Positions 2,379 through 49,000 of a stretch of DNA of 64,000 nt are shown in pieces (the first letter of the stretch is position 1; every line of letters begins with the position of its first letter). The stretch lies in assembly GCA_012646185.1 (NCBI GenBank), contig GCA_012646185.1_4706.1; one strand, given 5' to 3'. The stretch is from a phage. The position numbers were made by a program, and so were the translations under genes. The notes beneath the pieces are model-generated. The model was not told the origin of the DNA and did no database searches. It saw only the letters and a list, made by a program, of their open reading frames with translations.

Positions 2379-3017
2379 TTAACCTAATTTACCACCGGCA
2401 ATGTTGGTGAAATCTTCGCCATCAGGAACTTGCAGTAGGATACGTGCCATGTCCCAGTTGGTTAATGTAATTGCTTTATCATCGATACTCAGTTCTGGTA
2501 GGTCGAGTTCATGATCATCAAACTCGTAGGAAATACTCCACGTTTCATCTGTTTTAGGATCGGTTATCAACACACCGTCTGTTACACGCATGTAGTCCGG
2601 ATGCAATTCATTACTGAATGTGCTGAACGGATCGGTGTAACATTCAGCATACCCCTCGATCTGCTGACGTTGCGCCTTCGTACGTAATTCAGGGCACGCC
2701 ATAATCAGTTGTCGAGATATGCCGTTTGCAGCACGGAAGTCTTCCACGGTGTTGCATGGCATAACCACATCGTCATGGAAGATGTTCTCCGATTGTCTCA
2801 ACAGCGTCTTACGGAGTTCAGCATAGTTTATCTGATTGAATGCGTCGAACGTTGCTAACGATTCAGCGTAAAAATGCTTTACGTGTTCGCTTGCACTGCC
2901 GAGGCTATTCATCAGCTTGTGGCCGTACTCCATAAAGCTTTTATCGAGACCGGAGGACATTTCTCCGAACCTCAGTGCACGATAACTGTCTCGTCCACCT
3001 GTAAATATTTGCGCCAT
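2379..3017 (-). CDS. hypothetical protein
   Basis: 212-aa ORF; ATG preceded by AGGAGG SD immediately after the stop of the upstream exon. Confidence 0.65.
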   Translation of the reverse strand: MAQIFTGGRDSYRALRFGEMSSGLDKSFMEYGHKLMNSLGSASEHVKHFYAESLATFDAFNQINYAELRKTLLRQSENIFHDDVVMPCNTVEDFRAANGISRQLIMACPELRTKAQRQQIEGYAECYTDPFSTFSNELHPDYMRVTDGVLITDPKTDETWSISYEFDDHELDLPELSIDDKAITLTNWDMARILLQVPDGEDFTNIAGGKLG

Positions 3018-3032
3018 TACAGGCGTCCTCCT

Positions 3033-3254
3033 TTAGCAATGGTTGTTAGTTGCTTCTATTTCATCAAGATACGGTTCTACGTCATCGCCCTCCACGAATT
3101 CGTTGAACCAACAGTCAATGGTAGAAATAACCGGTGACTGGTGTTCACATTTCTTAGATACCTTAAAAGGCACGTTATTATCCATCATACCGAGTTCGGG
3201 TCGAAAACGCCCGAAATGTTTCGCAGTCCAAATGTCTGGGACGATATGGTTGTT
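3033..3254 (-). CDS. exon 3 of beta-prime-like gene (73 codons + stop)
   Basis: Begins AAC AAC CAT ATC GTC CCA (NNHIVP, cf. E. coli QMAVHVP after DFDGD) immediately after an intron-terminal G at 3255; in frame with the micro-exon. Confidence 0.7.
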   Translation of the reverse strand, partial: NNHIVPDIWTAKHFGRFRPELGMMDNNVPFKVSKKCEHQSPVISTIDCWFNEFVEGDDVEPYLDEIEATNNHC

Positions 3255-5233
3255 CATCAAAATCTTCAGTATGAATCGCTACTTCATACCCGCAGCATTA
3301 CCTGCAGCTCCTGGTGTTACCAGGATGTTGAGAGTATATCATGCCCATATTCCAAATGGAACGTAGGACTTCCGCGCTGGATCTCGCTTGAGACCACTTA
3401 CTCGTTGAACGTTCTCCTAAACGGAGCTTCGCTGCTGATTGGACATTGTTACGTACGGTAGGCGTCCCATTAAAGGGATTTTCATTGAAGCCGCGTACAT
3501 CCGTTACCTTGTTTCTACCTTATCGGTTCCTCTTACGAGGCGTAACGGCTTTAGCCTATTCCAGCAATTCACGGAATGCATATTCTCCTTTTCAGGAGAT
3601 AAGGCCATGGCTCTGGCATCACCGTCAAAGTCCACATATCTTCAGTATGAATCGCTACTTCATACCCGCAGCATTACCTGCAGCTCCTGGTGTTACCAGG
3701 ACGGAGAGATCATCTCATCACCCACGAAGGGTGTTCCGCGCTACCCTCAGCGAATTCGAGGGACATGATCGTTGAACCTTCCACCGATAATCGGTGGCTA
3801 GGCTGCTGATTAAACATTGTACGTTGGGGTGGCATCCTGGTTCAGGACTGTCGTTGAAGCCTCCCAACATCCACTCACTTATTTCCGCCTTATCGGCTCC
3901 CATAAGGGCAGAGTGGCTTTAGCCCGTCTCAGCAATTCACGGAATTCAAGCTCTTCCTTTCAGAAGGCAGGGCCTCATCTGAAGCATTGTATCCCTTAAG
4001 GATCATCACGCTTAACCCGATGGTGTTATCCTGCGGATCGCGTTTAACCTTGGTGATTTCAAGACATTGGTTACTGCTTCGGTCAAGTGATGGGTTTCGA
4101 ACAAAGCCGCACACAATCCCATCGAACGGCGTATCAGCAATAAGCTCATCGTGCAGCTCGCTCATCATCGGATGATAATTACGGACATGTTCCGCAACGA
4201 ACGCACGCGCTGCTCTCGGTGAGTAACCACGATGGAATAACTTGGATTGGATATGTTCTTTATTGGTTAAAGTAAATGGTGCGTATGGGAAATGCAGATG
4301 ATAATAACGATGGTTCGCTGTTATCGAACTGATTACGGTACGCGTGGTGAATGGATGTAATGTACCTAATATGTTTTTACGTGTAATACCTTTCTTCTTA
4401 CCGATGAACTCATCGAAAATCGCTGCGTGGTATTGCAGTAGCTTCAATTGCACTTTCGCCATCCAGTTTTCTTTCTTTCTGGCGCTCAAAGGTGTTGTTG
4501 GATGATAGATACTGTTCAACGTACCAATAGCATCGATCGCACCTTCCATTTTGCTATCCGCATAACGACCGGTCGGCGTATTTTCGATAACGAACATCAT
4601 GGCTGCAGGAAAGCTGATATACTGACTGAAGAACTTATCACGATGGATACGGATGAATTCTCGTAGCGTGTCAACTTTCTCCATGTTCTTCGGTCCACGT
4701 AACGTCGGTCCTTTATACAAGATCTCCATGATGCGATCGAAGTTCTGTATAAAGCTATTTACGCCACGCCGTATCCCGAATACATCGAATTGCTGCTCCA
4801 GATAGTTCTTGAGTTCGATGGGTCGTTTTACATTTGGACGGTAACTGGCATCAATGAGCCACGTCATCGTTTCAAAGCTTTTGATATTCAACTCGCTTGC
4901 CAGCACGAGATGGACCAACGGGTTAATGAACGCATCGATTCCTTCAGGAACGCGCGCCCAAACCGTCGAACGAATCTCTTGTTCTGCTGGGTAGGTTACA
5001 ACCGTTTTACAGTTTGGACACACCGTGCCGAGTAGCTCACCACGATTGTAGAAACCACAACCACATTGTGGTGTGATATCCAACGTATCGCTGGAGTAAA
5101 CACGGGTGATAAAACTGTTTAATTTCTTCTTCTCTTCGACGACTTTTGTATCGTAATCATTCAACAAAATCGGCGTGAAAGGAAGTTCTGCGAGCTGTCT
5201 ATCGAAACTCACGATATCGAGCATGATGGCCAT
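3033..5233 (-). CDS. RNA polymerase beta-prime-like subunit, N-terminal fragment type (non-virion RNAP by synteny); gene interrupted by two group I introns
   Basis: Exon 1 carries a Cys4 zinc-ribbon (CGCG...CPNC), a match to the beta-prime GKRVDYSGRSVI region (RKNILGTLHPFTTRTVIS) and an NRAPTLH-like RNPSLD; the spliced product of exons 3983..5233 + 3618..3632 + 3033..3254 (495 aa) reads ...KGYNA-DFDGD-NNHIVPD..., restoring the universal NADFDGD Mg-binding motif; AGGAG SD before the ATG at 5233. Confidence 0.75.
3255..3617 (-). ncRNA. group I intron (no ORF), 3'-proximal member of a tandem pair
   Basis: On the minus strand, in canonical order: P-like GAAUUGCUGGAAU (plus 3561-3573), Q-like AAUCAGCAGC (plus 3431-3440), R-like GUUCAACGAGUAAG (plus 3397-3410), S-like GAUAUACUCU (plus 3331-3340) with P7 pairing GAGUA/UACUC; ends in G; preceding exon ends in U. 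Confidence 0.75.
3618..3632 (-). CDS. 15-nt micro-exon encoding D-F-D-G-D (catalytic aspartate triad)
   Basis: Minus strand GAC TTT GAC GGT GAT lies exactly between the two introns, in frame with exon 1 (ends ...TAC AAT GCT = YNA) and exon 3. Confidence 0.7.
3633..3982 (-). ncRNA. group I intron (no ORF), 5'-proximal member of a tandem pair
   Basis: P-like GAAUUGCUGAGA (plus 3928-3940), Q-like AAUCAGCAGCC (plus 3801-3811), R-like GGUUCAACGAUCAUG (plus 3764-3778), S-like GAUGAUCUCUC (plus 3704-3714) with P7 GAUCAU/AUGAUC; ends in G at 3633; exon 1 ends in U at 3983. Confidence 0.8.
3983..5233 (-). CDS. exon 1 of beta-prime-like gene (417 codons)
   Basis: ORF-track ORF 3929..5233 truncated at the 5' splice site; the 18 track codons after ...GYNA (SDEALPSERKSLNSVNC) are intron-encoded and overlap the intron P element. 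Confidence 0.7.
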
Positions 5234-5275
5234 GGGGTATCTCCTACAAATGAAAAAGAACGTTAGGACGTATAA

Positions 5276-5299
5276 GGGAGGGAGGTTGCCCTCCCTCCC
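5276..5299 (-). terminator. GC-rich hairpin after the shell-protein gene
   Basis: gggagggagg-ttg-cctccctccc, with a U-rich stretch ~15 nt downstream on the minus strand. Confidence 0.5.
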
Positions 5300-5325
5300 G
5301 TCAGATTACATCGAACGTTCTTCCA

Positions 5326-7221
5326 TTAGAACAGGTTGAATGCCCCACCCATGTTGTTAACGCCAACATTCGGACGATCGCTACGTGCGTAGATGTTACC
5401 GGAGATGTTACCCAGACCACGAGCACGTGCTGCCATGTTACCACGAACAGCGGTACCTGCCAGATGCTGGATGTTCTCAGGACGGATGGTGAAGCCAGCA
5501 TCAGCCGCAGCTTCGATCAGCGCCTGCAGTGCTAACGGATCGAAGTCGTAACGCATTGCCCAGCCGGTTTGTTCCCAGCTACCAGACAGAACACGATCGA
5601 TGATTTCGTGACGAGCGACAACACGCTGAGACATCGTCATATCGGTACGGTCGAAGCTGTCTTCCCAAGCTTCTACGGTATCCGGGTTAGTGATGTTCAT
5701 CATGTACAGATCGTCCATATCACGAATATCGTGACGGTGACCATCCTGGTGGTTGTAGTAACCCAGCGGGATACGGTTACCGGTAGCGTAGACCAGCGGT
5801 TGGCCGTATTGATATTTCTTGCTGAAGCAACCCAGGGTAGTATCATCGAAGGCACGGTAAAGTGCTTTGTAGCCTTCAGAGACTTCCTGAACTTTACCTT
5901 CAACATTACCCGTATAGATCTTCTCAGCCGCCGGGATCATACGCAGCAGCCAGCTGTATTCGCCTTCTTCCGGTACGTCGATAGAAATCAGCAGAGACGG
6001 ATACAGAACCTGTTGCAGGAACTTGTAAATCTGCTCGTTGGTTTGCGTAGACAGATCCAGCGGTGCAGTCACTTCAGGATCCAGCACCATCGCCAGAGCA
6101 CCTGGGTTATGCGGACCAATACCACGAGCCGCGTTGCTGATTAAAGACTGTGCCCATGCCATGCCGCTGTTCAGCGTAGCGATGGTACCAATCAGACCCA
6201 GCACGAAGCTGTTCGGTGTGAACGCATCCAGCTCCAGCGGGTAAGCGCTGGTCATCACGTAACGCGGCTGGTATTGTACAGTCGGCGGTACCGGATAGCC
6301 GTTAACCAGAACAGGGCCTTGGTTGAAGGTCGGGTTCTGCGGGCTGTAGGTCAGGTCGATGTAACCGGTGGTGGCGACCAGACGCTGTTGACTATCGTAA
6401 TCGCTCATCGCTTGACGGATGCGGTTAGAGATAGTTACAGTGATGTCAGAACGCACAGGGTTACCAACAATATCACTGTCCTGCATACCGCTGGTGTTGT
6501 ACTGAACGCTGCTGATTGGCTGATCGCTTGCCATCATGCCCAGGTTGAACTGCGGCAGACCCAGTTTATCACCGAGACGGATTTCGATTGCGGTCTGGAT
6601 TGCGTTATCTGCAGCAGACAGCAGGGTGGTTGCCAGATGCGCAGATTCAGCGGTGATTTCATTGGTCACCACAGCCAGACCAGCGATACGAACAGTACCG
6701 TTAGACTTACCGCCAATAGCTGAATACATTGCCGCCATGACTTCGTTGATGAACGTACCGTTCAGGTTATCAACCCAGGTACGCGGTACCAGAATGTTAC
6801 CATGCGGACCTTGTTCTTCACGACGCGGCAGCGGAGCCAGACCAGCAACCAGCGGCAGGACGTAACCGAAGAAGTGGTTATGATCACCAACTTTTGCACC
6901 GCTCATAACAACCAGGGTCGGATACGGTACGCTGTACTGGTTCGGGTCAACCGCAACAAAGATGAAGTCGTCTTTGAACTGGGTATCTTCCAGATATTTC
7001 TCCATCAGACGACGGAGATTCAGTACCTGCTCGGAGCCGGTATTACGGCTGATACGACGGCTCAGTGTACGGTTGATCGTACGCATCGTATGAGTTACTT
7101 TAGGACGGTCGGCAAAATCTGCAGCGGTTTCCAGCGCCTCATCAGCACGTTGTGCGGTGCGGGTTTCAGCTGCACGAATTTCTACATTATCGTTACCGTT
7201 ATTACGTACGTCTAAGCCCAT
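5326..7221 (-). CDS. chmA: chimallin-like phage nucleus shell protein (putative)
   Basis: 631-aa ORF, strong AAGAGGAA SD, codon usage typical of an abundant protein, early-promoter motif ~70 nt upstream, immediately upstream of a beta-prime-like RNAP gene as in phiKZ (gp54-gp55); identification rests on size and synteny, not on a catalytic motif. Confidence 0.55.
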   Translation of the reverse strand: MGLDVRNNGNDNVEIRAAETRTAQRADEALETAADFADRPKVTHTMRTINRTLSRRISRNTGSEQVLNLRRLMEKYLEDTQFKDDFIFVAVDPNQYSVPYPTLVVMSGAKVGDHNHFFGYVLPLVAGLAPLPRREEQGPHGNILVPRTWVDNLNGTFINEVMAAMYSAIGGKSNGTVRIAGLAVVTNEITAESAHLATTLLSAADNAIQTAIEIRLGDKLGLPQFNLGMMASDQPISSVQYNTSGMQDSDIVGNPVRSDITVTISNRIRQAMSDYDSQQRLVATTGYIDLTYSPQNPTFNQGPVLVNGYPVPPTVQYQPRYVMTSAYPLELDAFTPNSFVLGLIGTIATLNSGMAWAQSLISNAARGIGPHNPGALAMVLDPEVTAPLDLSTQTNEQIYKFLQQVLYPSLLISIDVPEEGEYSWLLRMIPAAEKIYTGNVEGKVQEVSEGYKALYRAFDDTTLGCFSKKYQYGQPLVYATGNRIPLGYYNHQDGHRHDIRDMDDLYMMNITNPDTVEAWEDSFDRTDMTMSQRVVARHEIIDRVLSGSWEQTGWAMRYDFDPLALQALIEAAADAGFTIRPENIQHLAGTAVRGNMAARARGLGNISGNIYARSDRPNVGVNNMGGAFNLF

Positions 7222-7285
7222 TTGGGATTCCTCTTTTCTTAAACTTTATTAAATGACGTCATTGAATCAGCTTCTACTCGCTCAT

Positions 7286-7320
7286 TCACCTAGGTAATAT
7301 AACCCTGAAATTTTTTTCAA
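7286..7320 (-). promoter_or_regulatory. phiKZ-type early promoter motif (GAAAAAAA...TATATTAC on minus strand)
   Basis: Plus strand ctaggtaatataaccctgaaatttttttc; ~70 nt upstream of the chimallin-like start codon. Confidence 0.6.
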
Positions 7321-7475
7321 TATTGGTGTAACCACATTGAACGATATAAACCCCCAGGCGAACGCTGCCGAGAAGCAACATTCTTTCTACATATAATCAG
7401 GATATGTCTGTAAACTTTTACTTCTCTTATTGAGAGTAATGTCATATCCGTTTACTACCTTCTTACGGAGTTCGT

Positions 7476-8570
7476 ATGTTTCGTGTTTTAAATAACCTCC
7501 CGCGAACATCATCGGGTGTGCAACCCGTCCCTCAGAAAGACTATCTAATACGCGAAGTTCAAAGAAACCTACAGACAATCCAGAACCACTATCAAGGTTT
7601 TACCTTCGCGGTTCAGAGCGATCACATCCTTGCGTTGCTGCTCGCACAGCTCCCTATGAGATACGACATCTCAGTACAAACTTACTACGACATGATTCTC
7701 GATCTTACCCCAGAATTGGGTAATCGTGTCAAGTTGACAACATCAAGATACGCGGGTAAGTTATTCGACGGTGCTTTCTATCCGGGATTGCACGAAGCTA
7801 TTATCGCAACCGGTGAAAGTCGTCTTATTTCACGTGACGTTCTTGACAACTGGCGTAATTGGTCACCAGTTAGAATCGTGACGCACCCATACGCAAATCT
7901 TCGTTACATTCCTCTTCACCGAAAGCAGGTTGAAGATGGGCGAGGTTTTGCAGTCATTATGGTTGACGTACCTTTATTAGCGCTACAGTATCGAATGTGG
8001 TCTTTGATCATGGGTCATAACGTCGACGGTAAATGGGTGGTTAAAGAACCGGTTACAAGCTTCCTTGCGAGTTTTCCGTTGGTTAACGCATTATACTCAC
8101 ACAACGATGTTGTTATACGTAATCGTTGTTTGTGGGTATCTCCGGCTAAGAATCCACTCAAATCACCCATTTACGTTAACGACCTTGATAACGTATTCAG
8201 CCAAGTCGTTCTGTCCGTACAGCATCATTTATTACGAAGAAGACGAAGCTACACCGATATGCTTAAACAGATACCGAGTTTATACGGAGATCAGTACCAA
8301 GCAACCCGAATGGGTTACACCGTCGATCTTCGACAAACACGATGGGCAAGGGATCTGGGTTGTCTGTCATTATGGCAACAACTCGTCACATTGCAAAACG
8401 TATCTGAAAGCGTCGGGTTCAGCAGTCAAATCGATAACGACCTGTACCGTGCTGCCGACCGGAGTCTAAAAGAAGGTAACTGGGAATCCTCTCCGTTACC
8501 TGGCGATTTAAGACGTGAAGTTATCGCACAGGTTGCCGACCTCTTAAAAATTCTTCCCGCTGGTGCATAA
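7476..8570 (+). CDS. hypothetical protein
   Basis: 364-aa ORF with ACGGAG SD; the only plus-strand gene in this neighbourhood; ends at a bidirectional terminator. Confidence 0.65.
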   Translation: MFRVLNNLPRTSSGVQPVPQKDYLIREVQRNLQTIQNHYQGFTFAVQSDHILALLLAQLPMRYDISVQTYYDMILDLTPELGNRVKLTTSRYAGKLFDGAFYPGLHEAIIATGESRLISRDVLDNWRNWSPVRIVTHPYANLRYIPLHRKQVEDGRGFAVIMVDVPLLALQYRMWSLIMGHNVDGKWVVKEPVTSFLASFPLVNALYSHNDVVIRNRCLWVSPAKNPLKSPIYVNDLDNVFSQVVLSVQHHLLRRRRSYTDMLKQIPSLYGDQYQATRMGYTVDLRQTRWARDLGCLSLWQQLVTLQNVSESVGFSSQIDNDLYRAADRSLKEGNWESSPLPGDLRREVIAQVADLLKILPAGA

Positions 8571-10865: not shown

Positions 10866-10893
10866 AACCGATCCAGCCGAAGCCAGATCGGTT
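10866..10893 (-). terminator. intrinsic terminator hairpin
   Basis: aaccgatc...gatcggtt inverted repeat followed on the minus strand by a U-tract. Confidence 0.5.
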
Positions 10894-11088: not shown

Positions 11089-11502
11089 TTACTGATTAAT
11101 CAAGTCGTTAGCAACAATCTTGGTGTAACCCGCCTGATTAAGAATTTGATTAATTTTCGTCACGTCGGTCGCATCCTCAATAACGATGCTGGGTTTATAG
11201 ATCAGCGTCTTGGTAACGACGATTGTACTCTCCTTAATCCAAGGAATCCCTAGAATCACATACTCGCCGTCGGCTGTAATGACCTCGACGTAATTGTATT
11301 TCGTCGGATCGTTCGGTACACTAGACGGGAGCCGGGAATAAATCTGTTGGTGAATGGCATCTACATCACGACCGTTACGTACAGCTGTGCGATAATTGTA
11401 CACAGCGCTAATTTCTACTCCGTTGAAGTTAACCCCAAGTTCTGGGGCGTACACATCAAAACTCACAACAGAGCCAATCTTTTCTAAATCAGAAGCTGGC
11501 AT
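11089..11502 (-). CDS. hypothetical protein
   Basis: 137-aa ORF; AAGGAT SD 8 nt before the ATG. Confidence 0.65.
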   Translation of the reverse strand: MPASDLEKIGSVVSFDVYAPELGVNFNGVEISAVYNYRTAVRNGRDVDAIHQQIYSRLPSSVPNDPTKYNYVEVITADGEYVILGIPWIKESTIVVTKTLIYKPSIVIEDATDVTKINQILNQAGYTKIVANDLINQ

Positions 11503-11513
11503 AATAGCATCCT

Positions 11514-12035
11514 TTATTTAAAAATGTATTCATATCCGAAAGTCGTCGCTGACCAGACCCGGATAGATGATAGTGTTCCGCCACGATAAAACGTTTTTGT
11601 GAATTCCATATCCTGGACAACACGATAATAAACACGTCCGATAATACGCACGATAAGGTTTCGTGATAACGATCTCTCCTCGCAGTATTCATCGATAAAG
11701 TCATCGTCGATATCCGATAAGACAACATCCGCAATTTCTTGCAGTAGATTCCTCATCAGCATCTGCCTTCCTTCGGTACCCCACCCAGACAAACAGTAAT
11801 CGTCTTCTGCCTGACTATAGATGTCGTTAACCGCCTGTTCGAGCAGTTGCTCAAGATAGTAGTCATCGCGTTTTATAACGTGGCGACGGCGCTCAGTGGC
11901 GTATTTTTCCATCCTGTGTTTCTCTTGTTCGGCGTATGTATTAACGACGCCACAGTCTTTTCTGGATCGTCCCACAATGCACGACGAAAACTGGATACTA
12001 CCATAACGGTAGGATAGATTTGTACAACCTCCCAT
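11514..12035 (-). CDS. hypothetical protein (start uncertain)
   Basis: ORF-track coordinates; N-terminal part overlaps ORF 11873..12361 in another frame; an internal Met (MEKYATERRR, near 11912) is a possible true start. Confidence 0.45.
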   Translation of the reverse strand: MGGCTNLSYRYGSIQFSSCIVGRSRKDCGVVNTYAEQEKHRMEKYATERRRHVIKRDDYYLEQLLEQAVNDIYSQAEDDYCLSGWGTEGRQMLMRNLLQEIADVVLSDIDDDFIDEYCEERSLSRNLIVRIIGRVYYRVVQDMEFTKTFYRGGTLSSIRVWSATTFGYEYIFK

Positions 12036-12361
12036 CCGTAACGATGTGCGTTAGTCGTACGTCCGACATTGAACAGACATAGCTGATTTAAGAAACAGAG
12101 CTGCATCTTCGTAAACAACACCATGTCTTCACGTTTAACGTATCCGAGGATATACGCATTCTCGAACGCCTCGCGTGACAAGACGGGACGATTAAGATAC
12201 CGTAACGCTAATACCAACAACGTTGTTATGCGCAACGGATCTTCTGGGTCATTCATGGTACTCAGCTCTGCTTGTAACCAGTCAGGGATAGTAACCGTCA
12301 GACGATAGGTATCTGTTCCACGATCAACCACATTCAATGTTGAAAAAGGCAACATATCCAT
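11873..12361 (-). CDS. hypothetical protein (start/end uncertain)
   Basis: ORF-track coordinates; part of a chain of mutually overlapping minus-strand ORFs in alternating frames. Confidence 0.4.
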   Translation of the reverse strand: MDMLPFSTLNVVDRGTDTYRLTVTIPDWLQAELSTMNDPEDPLRITTLLVLALRYLNRPVLSREAFENAYILGYVKREDMVLFTKMQLCFLNQLCLFNVGRTTNAHRYGWEVVQIYPTVMVVSSFRRALWDDPEKTVASLIHTPNKRNTGWKNTPLSAVATL

Positions 12362-12899
12362 GAATTCCTTCTAGCTCGAGGTTGTTCTCGCCGGTCTTCG
12401 GTAATAACCCACTGGCCGTTAACATCTGTGTCATCGAGTAGTCAAAGCACGGGAATATCAGGTTAACGGTTTCCTGGATCGCGTCAACATAACTATAAAT
12501 GGCTTCATAATACTCACCGTCATGATCTACGCTAACCAGTTCCTGACACAGTTCTTCGCTTATCATTTCATATACCGGTGGATACCACGATTGAAATGGT
12601 CGCTGCATACGTAACGACCAGTACTCGTACGTTGTATACTGAAGCACGTCATAAGCCGATACGTTAATGCGGTCGAAGAAAGCATACTTGTCCATATGCT
12701 GGTACAACATCGCCAACACGGTTTCCAAGCACACCGATATCCGCACGCCGTCATCTTTCCCGTTAAGAAAATTAGGTTTCTGCCGATAACGCACAAATGC
12801 CGACGGCCTTGATTGCATTATTCCACCACCAACCATAACGTCATACTCGTATCTAACGTAAAATTGAAATGCCACCAATCTTCTACACGTGGAATCCAC
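12324..12899 (-). CDS. hypothetical protein (start uncertain)
   Basis: ORF-track coordinates; ATG at 12818 (MQSRPS...) overlaps the upstream stop (taATG) and is a plausible true start. Confidence 0.45.
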   Translation of the reverse strand: MDSTCRRLVAFQFYVRYEYDVMVGGGIMQSRPSAFVRYRQKPNFLNGKDDGVRISVCLETVLAMLYQHMDKYAFFDRINVSAYDVLQYTTYEYWSLRMQRPFQSWYPPVYEMISEELCQELVSVDHDGEYYEAIYSYVDAIQETVNLIFPCFDYSMTQMLTASGLLPKTGENNLELEGIHGYVAFFNIECG

Positions 12900-13501
12900 G
12901 TACGAAGGATTTGGTTAACTTCGCTTCGCATCACCGATAAACGACAACGAAAATCGAACTTCTCATCGTGGCCGTAGTCTTCATGCATGAAAACTTCATC
13001 CAAAACGAACTCAAGTTGCATGTCGACATCGCGGCCAGAGATATTCCGTTTGTACAAATACAGTTCAATCGTGTCGTAAAGCAACGTATGAATATCATAA
13101 TTTCCGTTCGGTGAGAAATAAGGTAATCGCTCATCGAGCATCGAAAACAGATATTCACTGTAGTTTAATAACGGGATGATGTATCGACGCCCTGTCTGTG
13201 GTGTGCGAATATGTATCGAAACCTGACTTGGGCGCGGAATAACCGACGGCTTAGAATCGTCTCTCTGAAATTGCTCTAAAGATCGCAACAAAGGTGGCCG
13301 CATTGTAACTCTCCAACGCCCAATTGTAAGGCCCTTCCAACATGTGTTCCCATACGTGAATAAACTCACTACCGAAGACAGGCTCCAGCGCCATGGTGAG
13401 ATTCGTAAGTTCTGACGCAGCCGCATGGTAAGCATCAACATGTCTTTCCATTGACGGATCGTCTTCATTGAAAATACGTTCTGTGTCGCCAGCCCGCTCA
13501 A
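12818..13501 (-). CDS. hypothetical protein (start uncertain)
   Basis: ORF-track coordinates; protein-like sequence begins only in the C-terminal half; first ATG after the upstream stop is at 13141. Confidence 0.4.
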   Translation of the reverse strand: MSGLATQNVFSMKTIRQWKDMLMLTMRLRQNLRISPWRWSLSSVVSLFTYGNTCWKGLTIGRWRVTMRPPLLRSLEQFQRDDSKPSVIPRPSQVSIHIRTPQTGRRYIIPLLNYSEYLFSMLDERLPYFSPNGNYDIHTLLYDTIELYLYKRNISGRDVDMQLEFVLDEVFMHEDYGHDEKFDFRCRLSVMRSEVNQILRTWIPRVEDWWHFNFTLDTSMTLWLVVE

Positions 13502-13880
13502 TAAGTTCGGTAATGAGATCTGTCCATGTCTCGTGACACGTCATCATTTCCTGTTCTCGACTTAGTATGCCGATGTCTGCGTGGACGCTGGACTCGAACC
13601 GGTCTAAAAGGACCCGAAGAACGTGCACCTTGTCGATGTATTTCACCGTTATCCAGGAAAGCGGTTGCCACCGACTCAGCATCCATCCGGTACTCGGGAA
13701 CCCCAAACTCATATAGTACGGGTTGCACCGGACCGAAGACGGAGCGACGTTGTTTAAATCGTTCCTTAAGGGCAAGGCCTTGTTTAATATAAACGGGTTC
13801 ATTGGCGAGCTGTTCCGCTTTTCGTTTTGCGTGAGCCAATCGAAGTTCTTCCAATTGCCCAAGCCATTCAAATTGTTCAT
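13251..13880 (-). CDS. hypothetical protein (start uncertain)
   Basis: ORF-track coordinates; first ~110 codons are W/R-rich and overlap the 13498..14475 frame. Confidence 0.4.
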   Translation of the reverse strand: MNNLNGLGNWKNFDWLTQNEKRNSSPMNPFILNKALPLRNDLNNVAPSSVRCNPYYMSLGFPSTGWMLSRWQPLSWITVKYIDKVHVLRVLLDRFESSVHADIGILSREQEMMTCHETWTDLITELIERAGDTERIFNEDDPSMERHVDAYHAAASELTNLTMALEPVFGSEFIHVWEHMLEGPYNWALESYNAATFVAIFRAISERRF

Positions 13881-14475
13881 CTGTTAGCTCCTGGGGACGT
13901 TCAACAATCGCGCCAGACGGGCAGATATTGATCGTAATGTTAATTGACGGCATCGCCATCACTCGAGGATTACTATTACGTACGCGGACAACATGTTCGG
14001 TTGCTGATTTACGATCGACGCAATACTCTGTTTCTTGGAACTCAAATGCTTTTAACGGCGTTGGTTTTGTTTGATGTTTAGGAACGCGGCCAAGATCAAC
14101 AATATAGGCATAATCGCACACACGTTCTATTCCGTAAATACGGTTATCCGACCAGTTCTTACCAAACAGCTTGTTGTGATGATAAGACAGATATTCGGTT
14201 ACCATACCCTGGACAACATCGAAGTCTTCTCGAAATTCAGGTTGGTACCAAATCGGACCGAGAATATCTGCGAACGATTCATGACGATATCGAGGATCAT
14301 GTCGAGTCCAGGTCATTCTCTGATTAAGATCGAAATCCACCAACAACTCGGTTAATTGCAATTTTTCCTTCGGAGAAAGCTGGCGTTGATGATGCAAACT
14401 CAGACAATCGATAAGCGGTAATGAAACCCACGATGCTAATGTGTACAAATCGATCCTGGCTAATCTCTTGGTCAT
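13498..14475 (-). CDS. hypothetical protein
   Basis: 325-aa ORF; Arg-rich C-terminal tail overlaps the next frame, so a frameshift or overlap is possible. Confidence 0.5.
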   Translation of the reverse strand: MTKRLARIDLYTLASWVSLPLIDCLSLHHQRQLSPKEKLQLTELLVDFDLNQRMTWTRHDPRYRHESFADILGPIWYQPEFREDFDVVQGMVTEYLSYHHNKLFGKNWSDNRIYGIERVCDYAYIVDLGRVPKHQTKPTPLKAFEFQETEYCVDRKSATEHVVRVRNSNPRVMAMPSINITINICPSGAIVERPQELTDEQFEWLGQLEELRLAHAKRKAEQLANEPVYIKQGLALKERFKQRRSVFGPVQPVLYEFGVPEYRMDAESVATAFLDNGEIHRQGARSSGPFRPVRVQRPRRHRHTKSRTGNDDVSRDMDRSHYRTY

Positions 14476-14566: not shown

Positions 14567-14887
14567 TCATTTTCTCCCTCTTCGAATACTACCGATACCT
14601 CTTTCGTCTAAGACGTCCCAGGCACGCTTTATTTCATCCTCCGTTGCTCTGGTATCTGGAGGGACAACCATAACACAGTCATGGAATGGCCAATGTGTAG
14701 GTCTGGGGTTAGCGAACAAATCATCCCATTCAAATGTCCATTCTTTCTTTGAGCGATTGTAGTAGAGCGTAAGGTACGTGTTGGTATACGCTGGATAACC
14801 ATGCATCACTTCAATATCCTTACGATCTTGCCGTTCCTGATTCCAATCGTTAAACCGCTTTCTTATTTTCTCCCACCACTTTCCCAT
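14567..14887 (-). CDS. hypothetical protein
   Basis: 106-aa ORF; TAGGAGAAAG SD; TTTTATGCCGT motif ~17 nt upstream. Confidence 0.6.
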   Translation of the reverse strand: MGKWWEKIRKRFNDWNQERQDRKDIEVMHGYPAYTNTYLTLYYNRSKKEWTFEWDDLFANPRPTHWPFHDCVMVVPPDTRATEDEIKRAWDVLDERGIGSIRRGRK

Positions 14888-14910: not shown

Positions 14911-14931
14911 GCCTGCCCCGAAGGACAGGCT
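14910..14931 (-). terminator. hairpin (agcctg-10 nt-caggct)
   Basis: Inverted repeat between CDSs 14941..15141 and 14567..14887; no strong U-tract. Confidence 0.35.
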
Positions 14932-46080: not shown

Positions 46081-49000
46081 CCTTGTCTTCGCCTCAGGTC
46101 GCTACGCTGAGACCGCCTGCATGGATACGTACATCACAGGCTGCTTGCACTTTCATGCAAGAGGAGACTATATCAAACCGGCAGCGCAACCTGCTACGGT
46201 AACCTACACTTCGAAGACGCTCGTCCTCTACAGGGTGGTAAATCCCTTAGTCGTTGAACCTGCGTTGTTTCACATTCTTGTTTGTAAGAATGTCGTATTA
46301 CTACGCAACAACCAGGCTGCTGATTGCCCATTGTTTCGCACCTTAGCACCGCTTACGCGGCTTTTCTTTCAGCCTAAGCCTCTTACGGAGGTAGTGCATC
46401 TCAACTGTTGTTTCTGCCTTTCGGCACCTCATGGGTCGTTGAGCTTTAGGGGTTCCCAGCATTTCGTAGGTTTTTCAAGCACTCCCTTTCGGGAATACCG
46501 GACTCATTATTAGCTTATTTATTCAAGTATCTGAAATCCCACTTATCTTTACGTCGTTTATCGCACTTGATGTCAGGATGATTAACACGATGCCTAATAG
46601 TTGTTGCCGATAGCTGGCTGAGATTCTCAGCAGATCGTGCGCCAAGAACAACGAGTTTTGTGTCGTCTGGACGCGTAACTTCTACTGCCCGATAATGCTT
46701 ACGTAACACATCACGCCAATATTCACGACGTTCTGGTTCAGCATACTCAAGCATGTAACCGTTAACATCTACTAAACCGTAGCTTTCGTTTAATCGAGAG
46801 GTAGCGGCTGGTTTACTAATACCGATTGCTTTAGCCGCATCGACCACGGTTTTATACGGGGTCTCATTACCGTCTCTATCTACAACCACAATGAAATCTG
46901 GACGTGAATCGAGTAGCTGCTGTCTGCGTTCGACGGCTTGTTGATGAAGCACCATGTTAACGTGTTCGAACCCGTAACCTTCTGGACCGTGCCACCCTGG
47001 ATTGTTATTCGCTCGATAAAGTACCGTCGCAGATTTCACTCCAGTCTGACGTGACGCCTCGTTTGCACTATGAACAACCGTGGTAGAGCCGTCAGGGTGA
47101 TATATCCGTATCTGGTTCATTATACCGGAACCAATGAAGTTACCATCAGCTGATTTAATATCCGGCCATGGTTGAGGATCATCTTTGAATTTAACCACCC
47201 AGCGGTTATTAAACAGTTTGACTTTTCGAACATGTTTGCCCATTGTCGTATCCGTAACACCTGCGACTACTGATGCCTGTGTGATACTCAGGTACTCAGT
47301 AACGGTATCGTTCCATGTATCCCAAAGCAGAACCGGTTTATTGTCGTCGCGTAAACCGTATTCGATGGCGTGTAGAACGTTACGACTTCTGGTCGCCCAT
47401 TCAAGATTATCGAGAGAGTAATTCCATTTGTCGGCATCGAGATGATTAACGTCCAACTTATCGACATTAGCCGGATATTCCCGCCACGCCAACATCAAGC
47501 AGCGATGCAGAACCTTAGTTCTCGTTACATCCCGACAATCATGACGTAGACTAATGAATACGTAATTATCCTTTTTCGGATACGATCTACATTCCTGACC
47601 GTCTTTGCGGCGAATAACTCGTCCTTTCTCATTTATCAGATAACGGGTGTGTCCAGGAATGACACGATAACCAGGGTACTTAGCGATTTCGTAAGCAGGC
47701 TCGAACCGATAGGATAAATTATCAACATCCCAGTTAGATTCGTCACCATCAACAAACATCGCTTTGACGTACTTCTGTGTTTCAATATCAACCAGGATGT
47801 TTTTGTGTGCGATACAAATCAATGCTGGGATATTGAATTCACGACCGGCTAAGATAACCATGTCGCCATTTCTCGGTATCACGACGTGGGTATCACGATA
47901 CCGTAAATTTCCATAGCCGTCTATTTCAATCCAGCTTAGAAACGGAATGGATATAAACTCTTTTTCAGATACTCGCCATTTAAACATCTTAATACCTATT
48001 TAATACTAAACATCATATTAATAGGTTTAAAAGTTAAAAATGACAGAAAATGGCTAAATTGAATCACCGCCTAAACCGGCGAGGTACGGGGCAGGAACAA
48101 TAGTAGTTTCTACGAATGATGCATTAGGTAACCAGTCGGGGTATTCCCATGCGATAAATCGTTCATCCGTTATTGGTTCCCAGTTACTATCCAGTTCGGT
48201 TTTCGGTTTTGCCGCAACGGTTGTACGTGCGTAACAGGTTAACGGGATAACGGATTGCATACCGGATACCGGATAACGTGTTACCATCGCAGCCAGGTTA
48301 TTCCAGTACTTATAACCAGCGATATAAATAAGCTCGGTGTAAGTAATGGGGTGAACATCCGCACCAGGCTTATTCAACATCTCCGGAGGTAATTCACTCA
48401 TACCACGGAATAACCGAAACGAATCATTGTTCACATAGACGAGGCAAAGATATCGTCCATTGACCATGATAGGCTCGTTACGCACGCCAGGATCGCTTAA
48501 GGTGTTCAGTAAACGTTCTATTCCGTCCCAGGTTGTAAAGTCATCGATGGTGTCTGGATCAAGCGTGACACGTTCACGTTCCATCGTTTCGGTATCAATA
48601 AGTTCAACTTCTGTAACGTCACGAACAAATATTTCCTGCAAAATACCGGTACGTAACGCATGTTGCGTTACTGGGAGAGCAGCTTTACTCATCTGGTATA
48701 ACCCTAACTGAACTGCGGTACAGGAAGGCTGGTTAGGCGACCCTAATACCTCCGTTGTGGGGTTAATTGCCGAAATAACGTTACGGGTTGAGTTCCAAAC
48801 GCGACGTGAACCAAACTTCCCTTGGAAGATCCCTTTCTTACCTTGGAACATATCCAACAACAAAGCGTAGATATCGTTAAACGTTCTCTGTAAGCTCCAG
48901 CGTTGGCCGTCGTAAACGGGATCGGAATAATCTTTTAATCCATCAGGGACGGTGTTAGAAATTGCAAGGAAACGACGATACAACTCCGTGATTTCTTGCT

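What the first reader, a model, noticed from the sequence alone, without database searches (positions are those of the whole stretch)
11514..14475. Chain of six minus-strand ORFs in alternating frames with long mutual overlaps
ORFs 13498..14475, 13251..13880, 12818..13501, 12324..12899, 11873..12361 and 11514..12035 overlap their neighbours by roughly 40-380 nt in the track. After trimming to plausible starts some overlaps vanish, but at two junctions (about 13650 and 13250) protein-like sequence continues in the new frame without a nearby ATG. This could be a set of short translationally coupled genes, one or two larger genes with programmed frameshifts, or frameshift errors or pseudogenisation.
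Basis: seen in the sequence. Interest (0 to 1): 0.45.

Follow-up and report, generated by a model that had tools for sequence, protein, structure and literature searches.

The report
Six overlapping small jumbo-phage genes
The six overlapping reading frames are six real, separately started genes (gp237-gp242) of a Goslar-like E. coli jumbo phage, not frameshifted or broken genes; their 19-149-base overlaps are real and conserved, and two public start-codon annotations look wrong.

Summary
The window is a 98.5% relative of Escherichia phage Goslar, and the six minus-strand ORFs are its annotated hypothetical genes gp237-gp242. Nine Goslar-like genomes (88.8-98.8% identical here) have no indel in the stretch. 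In every gene most substitutions are synonymous in the annotated frame. Two diverged syntenic lineages (22-44% protein identity) carry orthologs of these genes, in the same order, as separate genes. Sequencing error, pseudogenisation and "one or two big genes with programmed frameshifts" are therefore not supported. The real overlaps are 149, 53, 19, 32 and 40 nt. They recur in all three lineages and carry 3.5-fold fewer substitutions than single-frame sequence (p=6e-9), so both frames appear constrained. The conserved start is GTG 13646 (ATG in one diverged lineage), giving a 131-aa protein that overlaps a conserved arginine-rich tail of gp237. gp240 most likely starts at 12836. Function remains unknown. 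Overall this is an ordinary kind of arrangement, with unusually long and well-conserved overlaps.

The parts
13498..14475 (-). gp237 (Goslar HOV27_gp237 / Goslar_00198), 325 aa. Conserved core about 13647-14475, followed by an arginine-rich C-terminal tail.
   Evidence: Annotated in Goslar. 76 of 121 polymorphic sites in 13701-14475 are synonymous in this frame. Distant homologs P0002 (32% identity) and P0003 (29%) were found. ATG at 14475 has SD -5.5 kcal/mol.
13498..13646 (-). 149-nt dual-coding overlap. The gp237 tail (..EIHRQGARSSGPFRPVRVQRPRRHRHTKSRTGN + a variable last ~16 codons) is in one frame and the first 49 codons of gp238 are in the +1 frame.
   Evidence: The tail motif RPVR.QR is present in P0002 (..LRPVRRQRRSSRRSAP). 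Synonymous sites of the gp238 frame are depleted in variation in 13643-13548 (5/32 vs 35/65, p=4e-4) but not in 13547-13498. The tail ends 3 codons early in L014.
13251..13646 (-). gp238, revised: 131 aa starting at GTG 13646. GenBank/RefSeq annotate 98 aa from ATG 13547.
   Evidence: ATG 13547 is ACG/ACA in L014, L015 and L017, and ATG 13544 is CTG in L017. 5 of 6 substitutions in 13646-13548 fall at third positions of this frame. Codon usage switches at about 13640. The N-terminal peptide is conserved in L019 (MKYVKPVNIIRLLLDRF, with ATG at the same codon) and in L020 (GTG two codons upstream).
12818..13303 (-). gp239, 161 aa, ATG 13303; overlaps gp238 by 53 nt (13251-13303).
   Evidence: ATG and GGAG SD (-6.4 kcal/mol) are invariant. 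A 67-nt invariant run, 13256-13322, covers the SD, the start and the overlap. Orthologs are 44% and 36% identical in L019 and L020.
12324..12836 (-). gp240, revised: 170 aa from ATG 12836 (annotated start 12818); overlaps gp239 by 19 nt.
   Evidence: The codon at 12818-12816 is ATA, ACA or GTA in four of nine genomes, while ATG 12836 is invariant. The L019 ortholog starts MLGGDRMSS, aligning with MVGGGIMQS. An independent gene caller gives 170 aa in L021-L023.
11873..12355 (-). gp241, 160 aa from ATG 12355 (an additional ATG at 12361 is lost in L017); overlaps gp240 by 32 nt.
   Evidence: SD -5.7 kcal/mol; L019 ortholog, 22% identity, E=1.5e-7.
11514..11912 (-). gp242, 132 aa from ATG 11912; overlaps gp241 by 40 nt.
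   Evidence: ATG 11912 is invariant, and the upstream ORF extension to 12035 is closed by stop codons in L015 and L017. In L019 the in-frame sequence upstream of the called start of the ortholog reads MEKCKARPIRIRRIIRRDD, matching MEKYATERRRHVIKRDD.
10866..10893 (-). Strong terminator-like hairpin downstream of gp243; probable 3' end of the transcription unit.
   Evidence: 12-bp stem followed by a T-run. Annotated as a terminator in Goslar.
14911..14930 (-). Putative terminator upstream of gp236 (from Goslar's annotation); probable upstream boundary of the unit gp236-gp243.
   Evidence: Goslar annotation. It was not recovered by the simple scan.
13603..13608 (-). In-frame TTT AGA (Phe followed by a rare Arg codon) in the gp237 frame, inside the overlap. 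Candidate +1 shift-prone site, probably incidental.
   Evidence: It is CTT AGA in L019, TTT CGA in L017, and absent in L020.
13275..13280 (-). Second in-frame TTT AGA, in the gp238 frame inside the gp238/gp239 overlap.
   Evidence: It is invariant in the nine Goslar-like genomes but absent at the homologous position in L019 and L020.

Best explanation
The region holds six real protein-coding genes (Goslar gp237-gp242). They are non-structural ORFans lying between PhuZ and the SH3DP/gp243-DNA polymerase genes, probably transcribed as one unit (gp236-gp243). Each is translated from its own start codon. Each downstream start lies inside the 3' end of the upstream gene, at GTG 13646, ATG 13303, ATG 12836, ATG 12355 and ATG 11912. 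Neighbours therefore share 149, 53, 19, 32 and 40 nt that are read in two frames. Shown by the analysis: the frames, the conserved starts, purifying selection in each frame, extra constraint in the overlaps, and conservation of the overlapping layout in diverged relatives. Inferred: translation of each gene is coupled to that of its upstream neighbour. Three of the five internal starts have only weak Shine-Dalgarno sequences, which fits coupling. This would keep the six products in fixed proportion. The gp237/gp238 overlap encodes both a conserved basic, probably disordered tail of gp237 and the N-terminal segment of gp238, which a low-confidence model predicts to be helical. The biochemical function of the six proteins is unknown.
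For: - Identity: the window is 98.5% identical to Goslar, which annotates the same six genes in the same frames.
- No indels: nine independent assemblies, 88.8-98.8% identical, have none in 11514-14475.
- Purifying selection in each frame: synonymous/total polymorphic sites are 76/121, 32/39, 60/76, 76/116, 61/90 and 32/51, and variation is concentrated at each frame's third codon position.
- Overlap zones carry fewer substitutions: 13/243 vs 493/2615 sites, p=6e-9.
- Diverged syntenic loci L019 and L020 carry the genes as separate genes in the same order. BLASTP confirms orthologs of all six in L019 and of gp237-gp240 in L020.
- Overlaps recur at every internal junction in all three lineages, using homology-inferred starts in L019 and L020: 149/89/20, 53/83/41, 19/22/34, 32/35/35 and 40/79/20 nt.
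- The gp238 start is supported by loss of the annotated ATGs, the codon-usage switch, and conservation of the N-terminal peptide with ATG (L019) or GTG (L020) at or next to the same codon. In L020 part of that peptide lies beyond the gp237 stop, so the other frame cannot be forcing its conservation.
- No conserved slippery site and no long homopolymer in the junction zones. No Rfam element. The hairpin around the GTG is no more stable than shuffled sequence (z=-0.77).
Against: - No expression, ribosome-profiling or proteomic evidence was found for these six proteins. None of them appears in the published Goslar virion mass-spectrometry table, which is expected for non-structural proteins but gives no positive support.
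- GTG 13646 has a weak Shine-Dalgarno sequence (-3.1 kcal/mol, near background) and lies 149 nt inside a translated ORF, too far from the gp237 stop for simple termination-reinitiation.
- Genomes that keep ATG 13547/13544 might also make a shorter isoform. The Met at which the gene caller started the L019 ortholog aligns with Goslar's Met35.
- The window's only two in-frame TTT-AGA codon pairs both lie in the two +1 overlaps, an unexplained coincidence.
- Translational coupling is inferred from the layout, not demonstrated.
Confidence: 0.85

Rival explanations
1. Programmed +1 ribosomal frameshifting joins gp237 to gp238 (and perhaps gp238 to gp239), for example at the in-frame TTT AGA C / CTT AGA C site. 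The product would be a fusion protein made in addition to, or instead of, an independent gp238.
For: - gp238 is in the +1 frame of gp237 in all three lineages, and its coding signal starts where the conserved gp237 core ends.
- There is no conserved ATG, and the GTG has a weak SD.
- A shift-prone-looking YTT AGA C sits in the overlap in both Goslar-like genomes and L019, resembling Ty1 CUU-AGG-C (own knowledge). The window's only two in-frame TTT-AGA pairs lie in the two +1 overlaps.
Against: - A start codon is kept at or beside the first codon of the conserved gp238 peptide in all three lineages: GTG, ATG, GTG.
- A shift at 13608 would skip the 13 conserved N-terminal residues.
- In L020 gp237 stops before the motif, yet the gp238 N-terminus is conserved.
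- The second motif is absent in L019 and L020.
- There is no conserved nucleotide motif at the frame switch, no stimulatory structure and no Rfam hit.
- gp239 has its own invariant ATG and a strong SD.
- TTT AGA arises automatically where the downstream frame reads T-TTA-GA.
Confidence: 0.05
2. gp238 starts at the annotated ATG 13547 (98 aa). The frame upstream of it is not translated, and the real gp237/gp238 overlap is only 50 nt.
For: - This is the GenBank/RefSeq annotation.
- The ATG has a somewhat better SD (-4.3 kcal/mol).
- The Met at which the gene caller started the L019 ortholog aligns with Met35 of the long form.
Against: - ATG 13547 is lost in three of nine genomes, and both ATGs are lost in L017, while the protein downstream stays under strong purifying selection.
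- Substitutions upstream of it fall at third positions of the gp238 frame (5 of 6). That pattern would be unlikely if only the gp237 frame were coding (about p=0.006 by my calculation from the counts).
- The 33-residue extension is conserved in L019 and partly in L020.
- An independent gene caller could not call gp238 at all in the L017-type contigs.
Confidence: 0.08
3. The alternating frames reflect sequencing or assembly frameshift errors, or recent pseudogenisation of one or two larger genes.
For: At the first junction the coding signal switches frame at one point and the sequence reads through plausibly (..AFLDNGE|KYIDKVH..), which is what a 1-nt indel would produce.
Against: - The frame structure is identical in nine independent assemblies from an isolate and several metagenomes, with no indels.
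- There is a strong synonymous excess in all six frames.
- The same split exists in lineages only 22-44% identical.
- There are no homopolymer runs of 6 or more at the junctions.
Confidence: 0.01

Closest known systems
Translationally coupled, overlapping cistrons in phage and bacterial operons (for example ATGA/TAATG junctions, and termination-reinitiation as described for RNA phages and E. coli operons; own knowledge)
   Same: The genes are same-strand neighbours in one transcription unit. Each downstream start codon, and its SD where there is one, lies inside the upstream gene. Several of these starts have weak SDs.
   Different: The overlaps are much longer than the usual 1-4 nt (19-149 nt), run through five consecutive junctions, and are conserved across lineages with 22-44% protein identity. 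Coupling itself was not tested. For the 149-nt overlap, simple termination-reinitiation is unlikely.
Overprinted (dual-coding) genes of small phages, for example phiX174 A/B, D/E and K, and the MS2 lysis gene (own knowledge)
   Same: One stretch of DNA is read in two frames, with evidence of constraint on both: synonymous sites are depleted in variation, both peptides are conserved within the nine Goslar-like genomes, and both are recognisable in L019.
   Different: Only the gene ends overlap; no gene lies wholly inside another. This occurs in a roughly 240-kb genome, where genome compaction is not an obvious pressure. The gp237 tail is absent in one lineage (L020), so the dual-coding part may be a lineage-specific gain or loss.
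Programmed frameshift genes of phages and bacteria (lambda G/GT tail chaperone -1, dnaX -1, prfB +1, Listeria phage PSA +1; own knowledge)
   Same: Two ORFs overlap in different frames, and coding continues in the new frame. At the first junction there is no ATG.
   Different: There is no conserved slippery site. The downstream ORFs have their own conserved start codons. The zero-frame does not terminate just after a shift site, except in L020. Five consecutive junctions would need both +1 and -1 events.

Membership tests
Programmed ribosomal frameshift gene pair | A conserved shift-prone (slippery) sequence in the zero frame within the overlap | tested here: not met
   No in-frame X_XXY_YYZ heptamer in any junction zone. 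The only +1 candidates are TTT AGA at 13608 and 13280. The second is absent in L019 and L020, and the first is absent in L020. The nucleotides at the frame switch differ between lineages.
Programmed ribosomal frameshift gene pair | The downstream ORF lacks its own initiation site and is expressed only as a fusion | tested here: not met
   Conserved starts are present at 13646 (GTG; ATG in L019), 13303, 12836, 12355 and 11912. Expression itself could not be tested.
Programmed ribosomal frameshift gene pair | A stimulatory element near the shift site (an RNA structure, or an upstream SD for +1 shifts) | tested here: not met
   The predicted hairpin at 13704-13608 has z=-0.77 against shuffles and no compensatory changes. 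No Rfam family matches.
Frameshifted pseudogene or sequencing error | Indel relative to intact orthologs | tested here: not met
   There are no indels among nine genomes. The orthologs are split in the same way in L019 and L020.
Frameshifted pseudogene or sequencing error | Relaxed selection after the break | tested here: not met
   63-82% of polymorphic sites are synonymous in the annotated frame of each gene.
Overlapping, translationally coupled operon genes | Same strand, one transcription unit, with each downstream start inside or abutting the upstream ORF | tested here: met
   All are on the minus strand between terminator-like sites at 14911-14930 and 10866-10893. The starts lie 19-149 nt upstream of the preceding stops.
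Overlapping, translationally coupled operon genes | Translation of the downstream cistron depends on translation of the upstream one | not testable with these tools
   This needs reporter fusions or premature-stop mutants. The only indirect hints are the weak SDs at gp238, gp240 and gp242.
Dual-coding (overprinted) sequence | Purifying selection on both frames, seen as loss of synonymous variation in the overlap | tested here: met
   Pooled overlaps: 13/243 vs 493/2615 polymorphic sites, p=6e-9. gp238-frame third positions: 5/32 in 13643-13548 vs 35/65 in the non-overlapping part, p=4e-4. Caveat: recombination patchiness was only checked by eye.
Dual-coding (overprinted) sequence | Both products conserved in diverged relatives | tested here: inconclusive
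   L019 has both the basic tail and the gp238 N-terminal peptide in overlapping frames, but conservation of one frame forces some conservation of the other. L020 keeps only the gp238 peptide.

The most novel reading that the evidence does not exclude
The conserved chain of long overlaps is an expression device rather than a passive layout. On this reading, the YTT-AGA-C site inside the gp237/gp238 overlap (and the TTT-AGA site in the gp238/gp239 overlap) drives low-level +1 frameshifting in the E. coli host, where AGA is a rare codon. This would produce gp237-gp238 and gp238-gp239 fusion proteins alongside the separate products.
Probability: 0.05. Interest if true: 0.6.

Novelty: new member of a known kind. 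Interest (0 to 1): 0.3.

Why it matters
Goslar is a main model for nucleus-forming jumbo phages in E. coli, and it is studied with knock-down tools that act on mRNA and translation.
- The results argue for correcting two gene models: gp238 should be 131 aa from GTG, not 98 aa from ATG, and gp240 should be 170 aa.
- Automated callers truncate these genes or miss them. gp238 is not called at all in L017-type contigs.
- Because gp237-gp242 overlap, perturbing one is likely to affect its neighbours.
- More generally, this is a well-supported case, based on population-level and deep comparative data, of long same-strand overlaps (up to 149 nt) kept under two-frame constraint in a large phage genome. 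Such long overlaps are often dismissed as annotation errors.

Tried and rejected
- Pfam and PHROGs scans of the six proteins and of their L019/L020 orthologs gave nothing meaningful.
- A 1131-aa concatenation of the six products as a query to the search for homologous proteins returned nothing. A later search with gp237 alone found relatives, so the blank was probably a limit of the word prefilter with a long chimeric query, not true absence.
- tblastn against GenBank phages found only Goslar. The bacterial genome scan found nothing.
- Single-protein anchor scans with gp237, PhuZ and SH3DP in IMG/VR found only the three Goslar-like contigs.
- All-against-all comparison of the six products showed no paralogy.
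- A conserved hairpin sequestering GTG 13646 was rejected: z=-0.77 and no compensatory pairs.
- Structure prediction did not help. gp238 alone gave pLDDT 54, all-helical. gp237 with six sequences gave pLDDT 56, with only residues 1-134 moderately confident.
- Fold searches found nothing in the PDB. BFVD gave only weak hits (E about 0.005-0.1) to uncharacterised proteins of other nucleus-forming jumbo phages. No function could be assigned.
- A profile search of PDB sequences found nothing. An Rfam scan found nothing relevant.
- Literature: no paper held in the library discusses gp237-gp242 of Goslar. They are absent from the virion mass-spectrometry table.
- The P0004 contig was too short to use.
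- In more distant chimalliviruses (L028-L043) tblastn found no homologs of the six genes.
Full report
**Identity of the region.** The window is a close relative (98.5% nucleotide identity, no gaps over 4.2 kb) of Escherichia phage vB_EcoM_Goslar, a nucleus-forming jumbo phage. In the RefSeq numbering used in the literature they are gp237 to gp242. PhuZ is gp234 and chimallin is gp246. The cluster lies between PhuZ, a small zinc-ribbon ORF and gp236 on one side, and the SH3DP-domain protein gp243 and the DNA polymerase on the other. Terminator-like sites sit at 14911-14930 (Goslar annotation) and 10866-10893.

**Check of the observation.**
- The long overlaps of 40-380 nt come from listing each ORF from the first possible start after a stop codon.
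- In related genomes those upstream extensions acquire stop codons or non-synonymous changes, so they are chance extensions.
- The overlaps that remain are 149, 53, 19, 32 and 40 nt.
- These are still exceptional for this genome. In 50 kb of Goslar annotation no other same-strand pair overlaps by more than 23 nt.

**Are these real genes in these frames?**
- I collected eight further Goslar-like genomes, three from IMG/VR and five from metagenomes, that are 88.8-98.8% identical to the window in this stretch.
- None has an indel between 11514 and 14475.
- There are 524 polymorphic sites. In each gene's non-overlapping part, most are synonymous in the annotated frame: 76/121, 32/39, 60/76, 76/116, 61/90 and 32/51. 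They also concentrate at that frame's third codon position.
- A codon-usage track trained on the window's long ORFs follows the same frames.
- Sequencing error and pseudogenisation are therefore excluded.

**Start codons.**
- Four junctions have an ATG that is invariant in all nine genomes: 13303, 12836, 12355 and 11912.
- ATG 13303 has a GGAG Shine-Dalgarno sequence (-6.4 kcal/mol).
- The annotated gp240 start at 12818 is ATA, ACA or GTA in four genomes, so ATG 12836 is the likely start. An independent gene caller and the L019 ortholog agree.
The annotated ATG of gp238 (13547) is ACG or ACA in three genomes, and in L017 the next ATG is CTG, yet the protein downstream remains highly conserved.
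- The gp237 frame loses coding signal at about 13640, where the gp238 frame gains it.
- Five of the six substitutions in 13646-13548 are at third positions of the gp238 frame.
- The only start codon conserved in all nine genomes is GTG 13646. Its Shine-Dalgarno sequence is weak (-3.1 kcal/mol).

**Diverged relatives.**
- An exhaustive HMMER search with gp237 found two distant homologs: P0002 (32% identity) and P0003 (29%).
- Their contigs, L019 and L020, are syntenic: tubulin, zinc-ribbon ORF, gp237 homolog, five small genes, SH3DP, DNA polymerase.
- BLASTP links each of the six genes to a positional ortholog in L019, and gp237-gp240 also in L020, at 22-44% identity. The gp241 and gp242 counterparts in L020 are positional only.
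- Reading upstream of the automatically called starts shows that the caller had truncated several genes to avoid overlaps.
- The gp238 ortholog of L019 continues upstream as MKYVKPVNIIRLLLDRFVDSV, homologous to Goslar's VKYIDKVHVLRVLLDRFESSV, with ATG at the codon where Goslar has GTG 13646.
- L020 reads V-T-VSYVNKLMVLRF, with GTG two codons upstream. Part of that conserved peptide lies beyond the gp237 stop, so it cannot be a by-product of the other frame.
- gp239 and gp242 of L019 likewise show N-terminal sequence homologous to Goslar's upstream of their called starts, which places their likely starts at upstream ATGs. The gp240 ortholog's called start already matches (MEK.. for gp242, M[VL]GG..M.S for gp240).
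- With the homology-inferred starts, the overlaps in window/L019/L020 are 149/89/20, 53/83/41, 19/22/34, 32/35/35 and 40/79/20 nt.
- The frame steps are the same in the window and L019 (+1, +1, -1, +1, -1).
- The overlapping chain is therefore an old and conserved feature of this cluster.

**Two-frame constraint.**
- Substitution density in the overlap zones is 0.02-0.10 per site, against 0.14-0.25 in single-frame sequence. Pooled, this is 13/243 vs 493/2615 sites, p=6e-9.
- The 53-nt gp238/gp239 overlap sits in a 67-nt run that is invariant in nine genomes.
- In the first overlap, third positions of the gp238 frame vary far less inside 13643-13548 (5/32) than in the rest of gp238 (35/65, p=4e-4). 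They vary normally in 13547-13498 (8/16).
- This matches the protein picture. The first 31 or so residues of the gp237 tail (..RQGARSSGPFRPVRVQRPRRHRHTKSRTGN) are almost invariant. The last 16 or so vary, and the tail ends early in L014.
- P0002 has a recognisably similar basic tail (..LRPVRRQRRSSRRSAP), whereas P0003 stops before it.
- I conclude that about 100 nt are probably functional in both frames, and that the distal 50 nt of the gp237 ORF are a free-running extension.
- L017's divergence is patchy along the region. Part of the local depletion could therefore reflect recombination history, although the pooled result across five separate zones is hard to explain that way.

**Frameshifting considered.**
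- gp238 is +1 relative to gp237 in all three lineages, and the sequence reads through smoothly, so I looked for recoding signals.
- There is no in-frame -1 heptamer and no homopolymer of 6 or more at any junction.
- The hairpin that RNAalifold draws around the GTG is no more stable than shuffled sequence and has no compensatory pairs. Rfam has no match.
- One oddity remains. The window's only two in-frame TTT-AGA codon pairs lie in the two +1 overlaps, at 13608 and 13280, and AGA is rare in this genome (4.4 per 1000 codons).
- Several points argue against a functional role:
  - The motif arises automatically where the downstream frame reads T-TTA-GA.
  - The second site is absent in L019 and L020.
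  - The first is absent in L020.
  - A shift at 13608 would skip the conserved gp238 N-terminus.
- I rate frameshift fusion at about 5%.

**Function.**
- No family, structural or literature evidence assigns a function.
- None of the six appears in the Goslar virion mass-spectrometry table, which does list the neighbouring gp243, PhuZ and the DNA polymerase.
- The gp237 model has a moderately confident N-terminal domain and a disordered C-terminal part that includes the basic tail.
- More distant chimalliviruses keep the PhuZ ... SH3DP synteny, with 8-10 small same-strand ORFs in between. Some of these also overlap by 30-60 nt, but they have no detectable similarity to gp237-gp242.
- The interval therefore looks like a fast-evolving array of small accessory genes.

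**Verdict.** This is an ordinary kind of arrangement, a tightly packed operon of separately initiated genes. Its overlaps are unusually long, conserved and constrained in both frames, and two public start annotations appear to need correction. It is not a recoding event, an error or a pseudogene.

Noticed in passing
window 11089-11502 (-): gp243 matches Pfam PF20287, 'SH3 fold domain associated with phage DNA polymerases' (E=1e-36), and sits next to the DNA polymerase. However, the Goslar virion cryo-EM/mass-spectrometry supplement lists it as an inner baseplate protein (24 copies). The Pfam name may be misleading about its role.
   Followed up: partly
window 14567-14887 (-); L005; L019; L020: gp236 (106 aa, PHROG 5903) is variable. 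L005 aligns with 190 gapped positions within 14595-14831, which is not a multiple of three. L019 and L020 have no gp236 between the zinc-ribbon ORF and the gp237 homolog.
   Followed up: partly
window 13603-13608 and 13275-13280 (-): The only two in-frame TTT-AGA codon pairs in any ORF of 100 aa or more in the 64-kb window both lie inside the two +1 overlap zones. This is probably a by-product of T-TTA-GA in the downstream frames, but the coincidence is not fully explained.
   Followed up: yes
L028-L043 (IMG/VR jumbo phage contigs), about 3500-8000 in each locus: Distant chimalliviruses keep PhuZ and the zinc-ribbon ORF 4-5 kb upstream of SH3DP. The interval is filled by 8-10 small same-strand ORFs with no detectable similarity to gp237-gp242, and several of them also overlap by 30-60 nt (first-ATG models). 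This looks like a hypervariable small-gene array.
   Followed up: partly
window 3592-3968 and 46140-46568 (-), from Goslar annotation: Goslar annotates two group I introns in this window. One lies next to an HNH endonuclease gene (2558-3568) and an RNA polymerase beta subunit gene, and the other lies between RNA polymerase-related genes.
   Followed up: no
L021-L023 (L017-type contigs), between 5978 and 6173 of L021: The automatic gene calls stored for these contigs have no gene at all where gp238 lies, because both ATGs are mutated. In L019 the caller started several genes downstream of homologous N-termini to avoid overlaps, and it started the gp237 homolog 22 codons too early.
   Followed up: yes
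BFVD hits to the gp237 model: After Goslar's own protein, many of the best weak fold matches (E 0.005-0.1, probability up to 0.98) are uncharacterised proteins of other jumbo phages, including nucleus-forming ones (PS119XW, 201phi2-1, Phabio, PhiPA3 gp044, Noxifer, RSL2). This hints that the N-terminal domain of gp237 may belong to a fold shared among jumbo phages.
   Followed up: no
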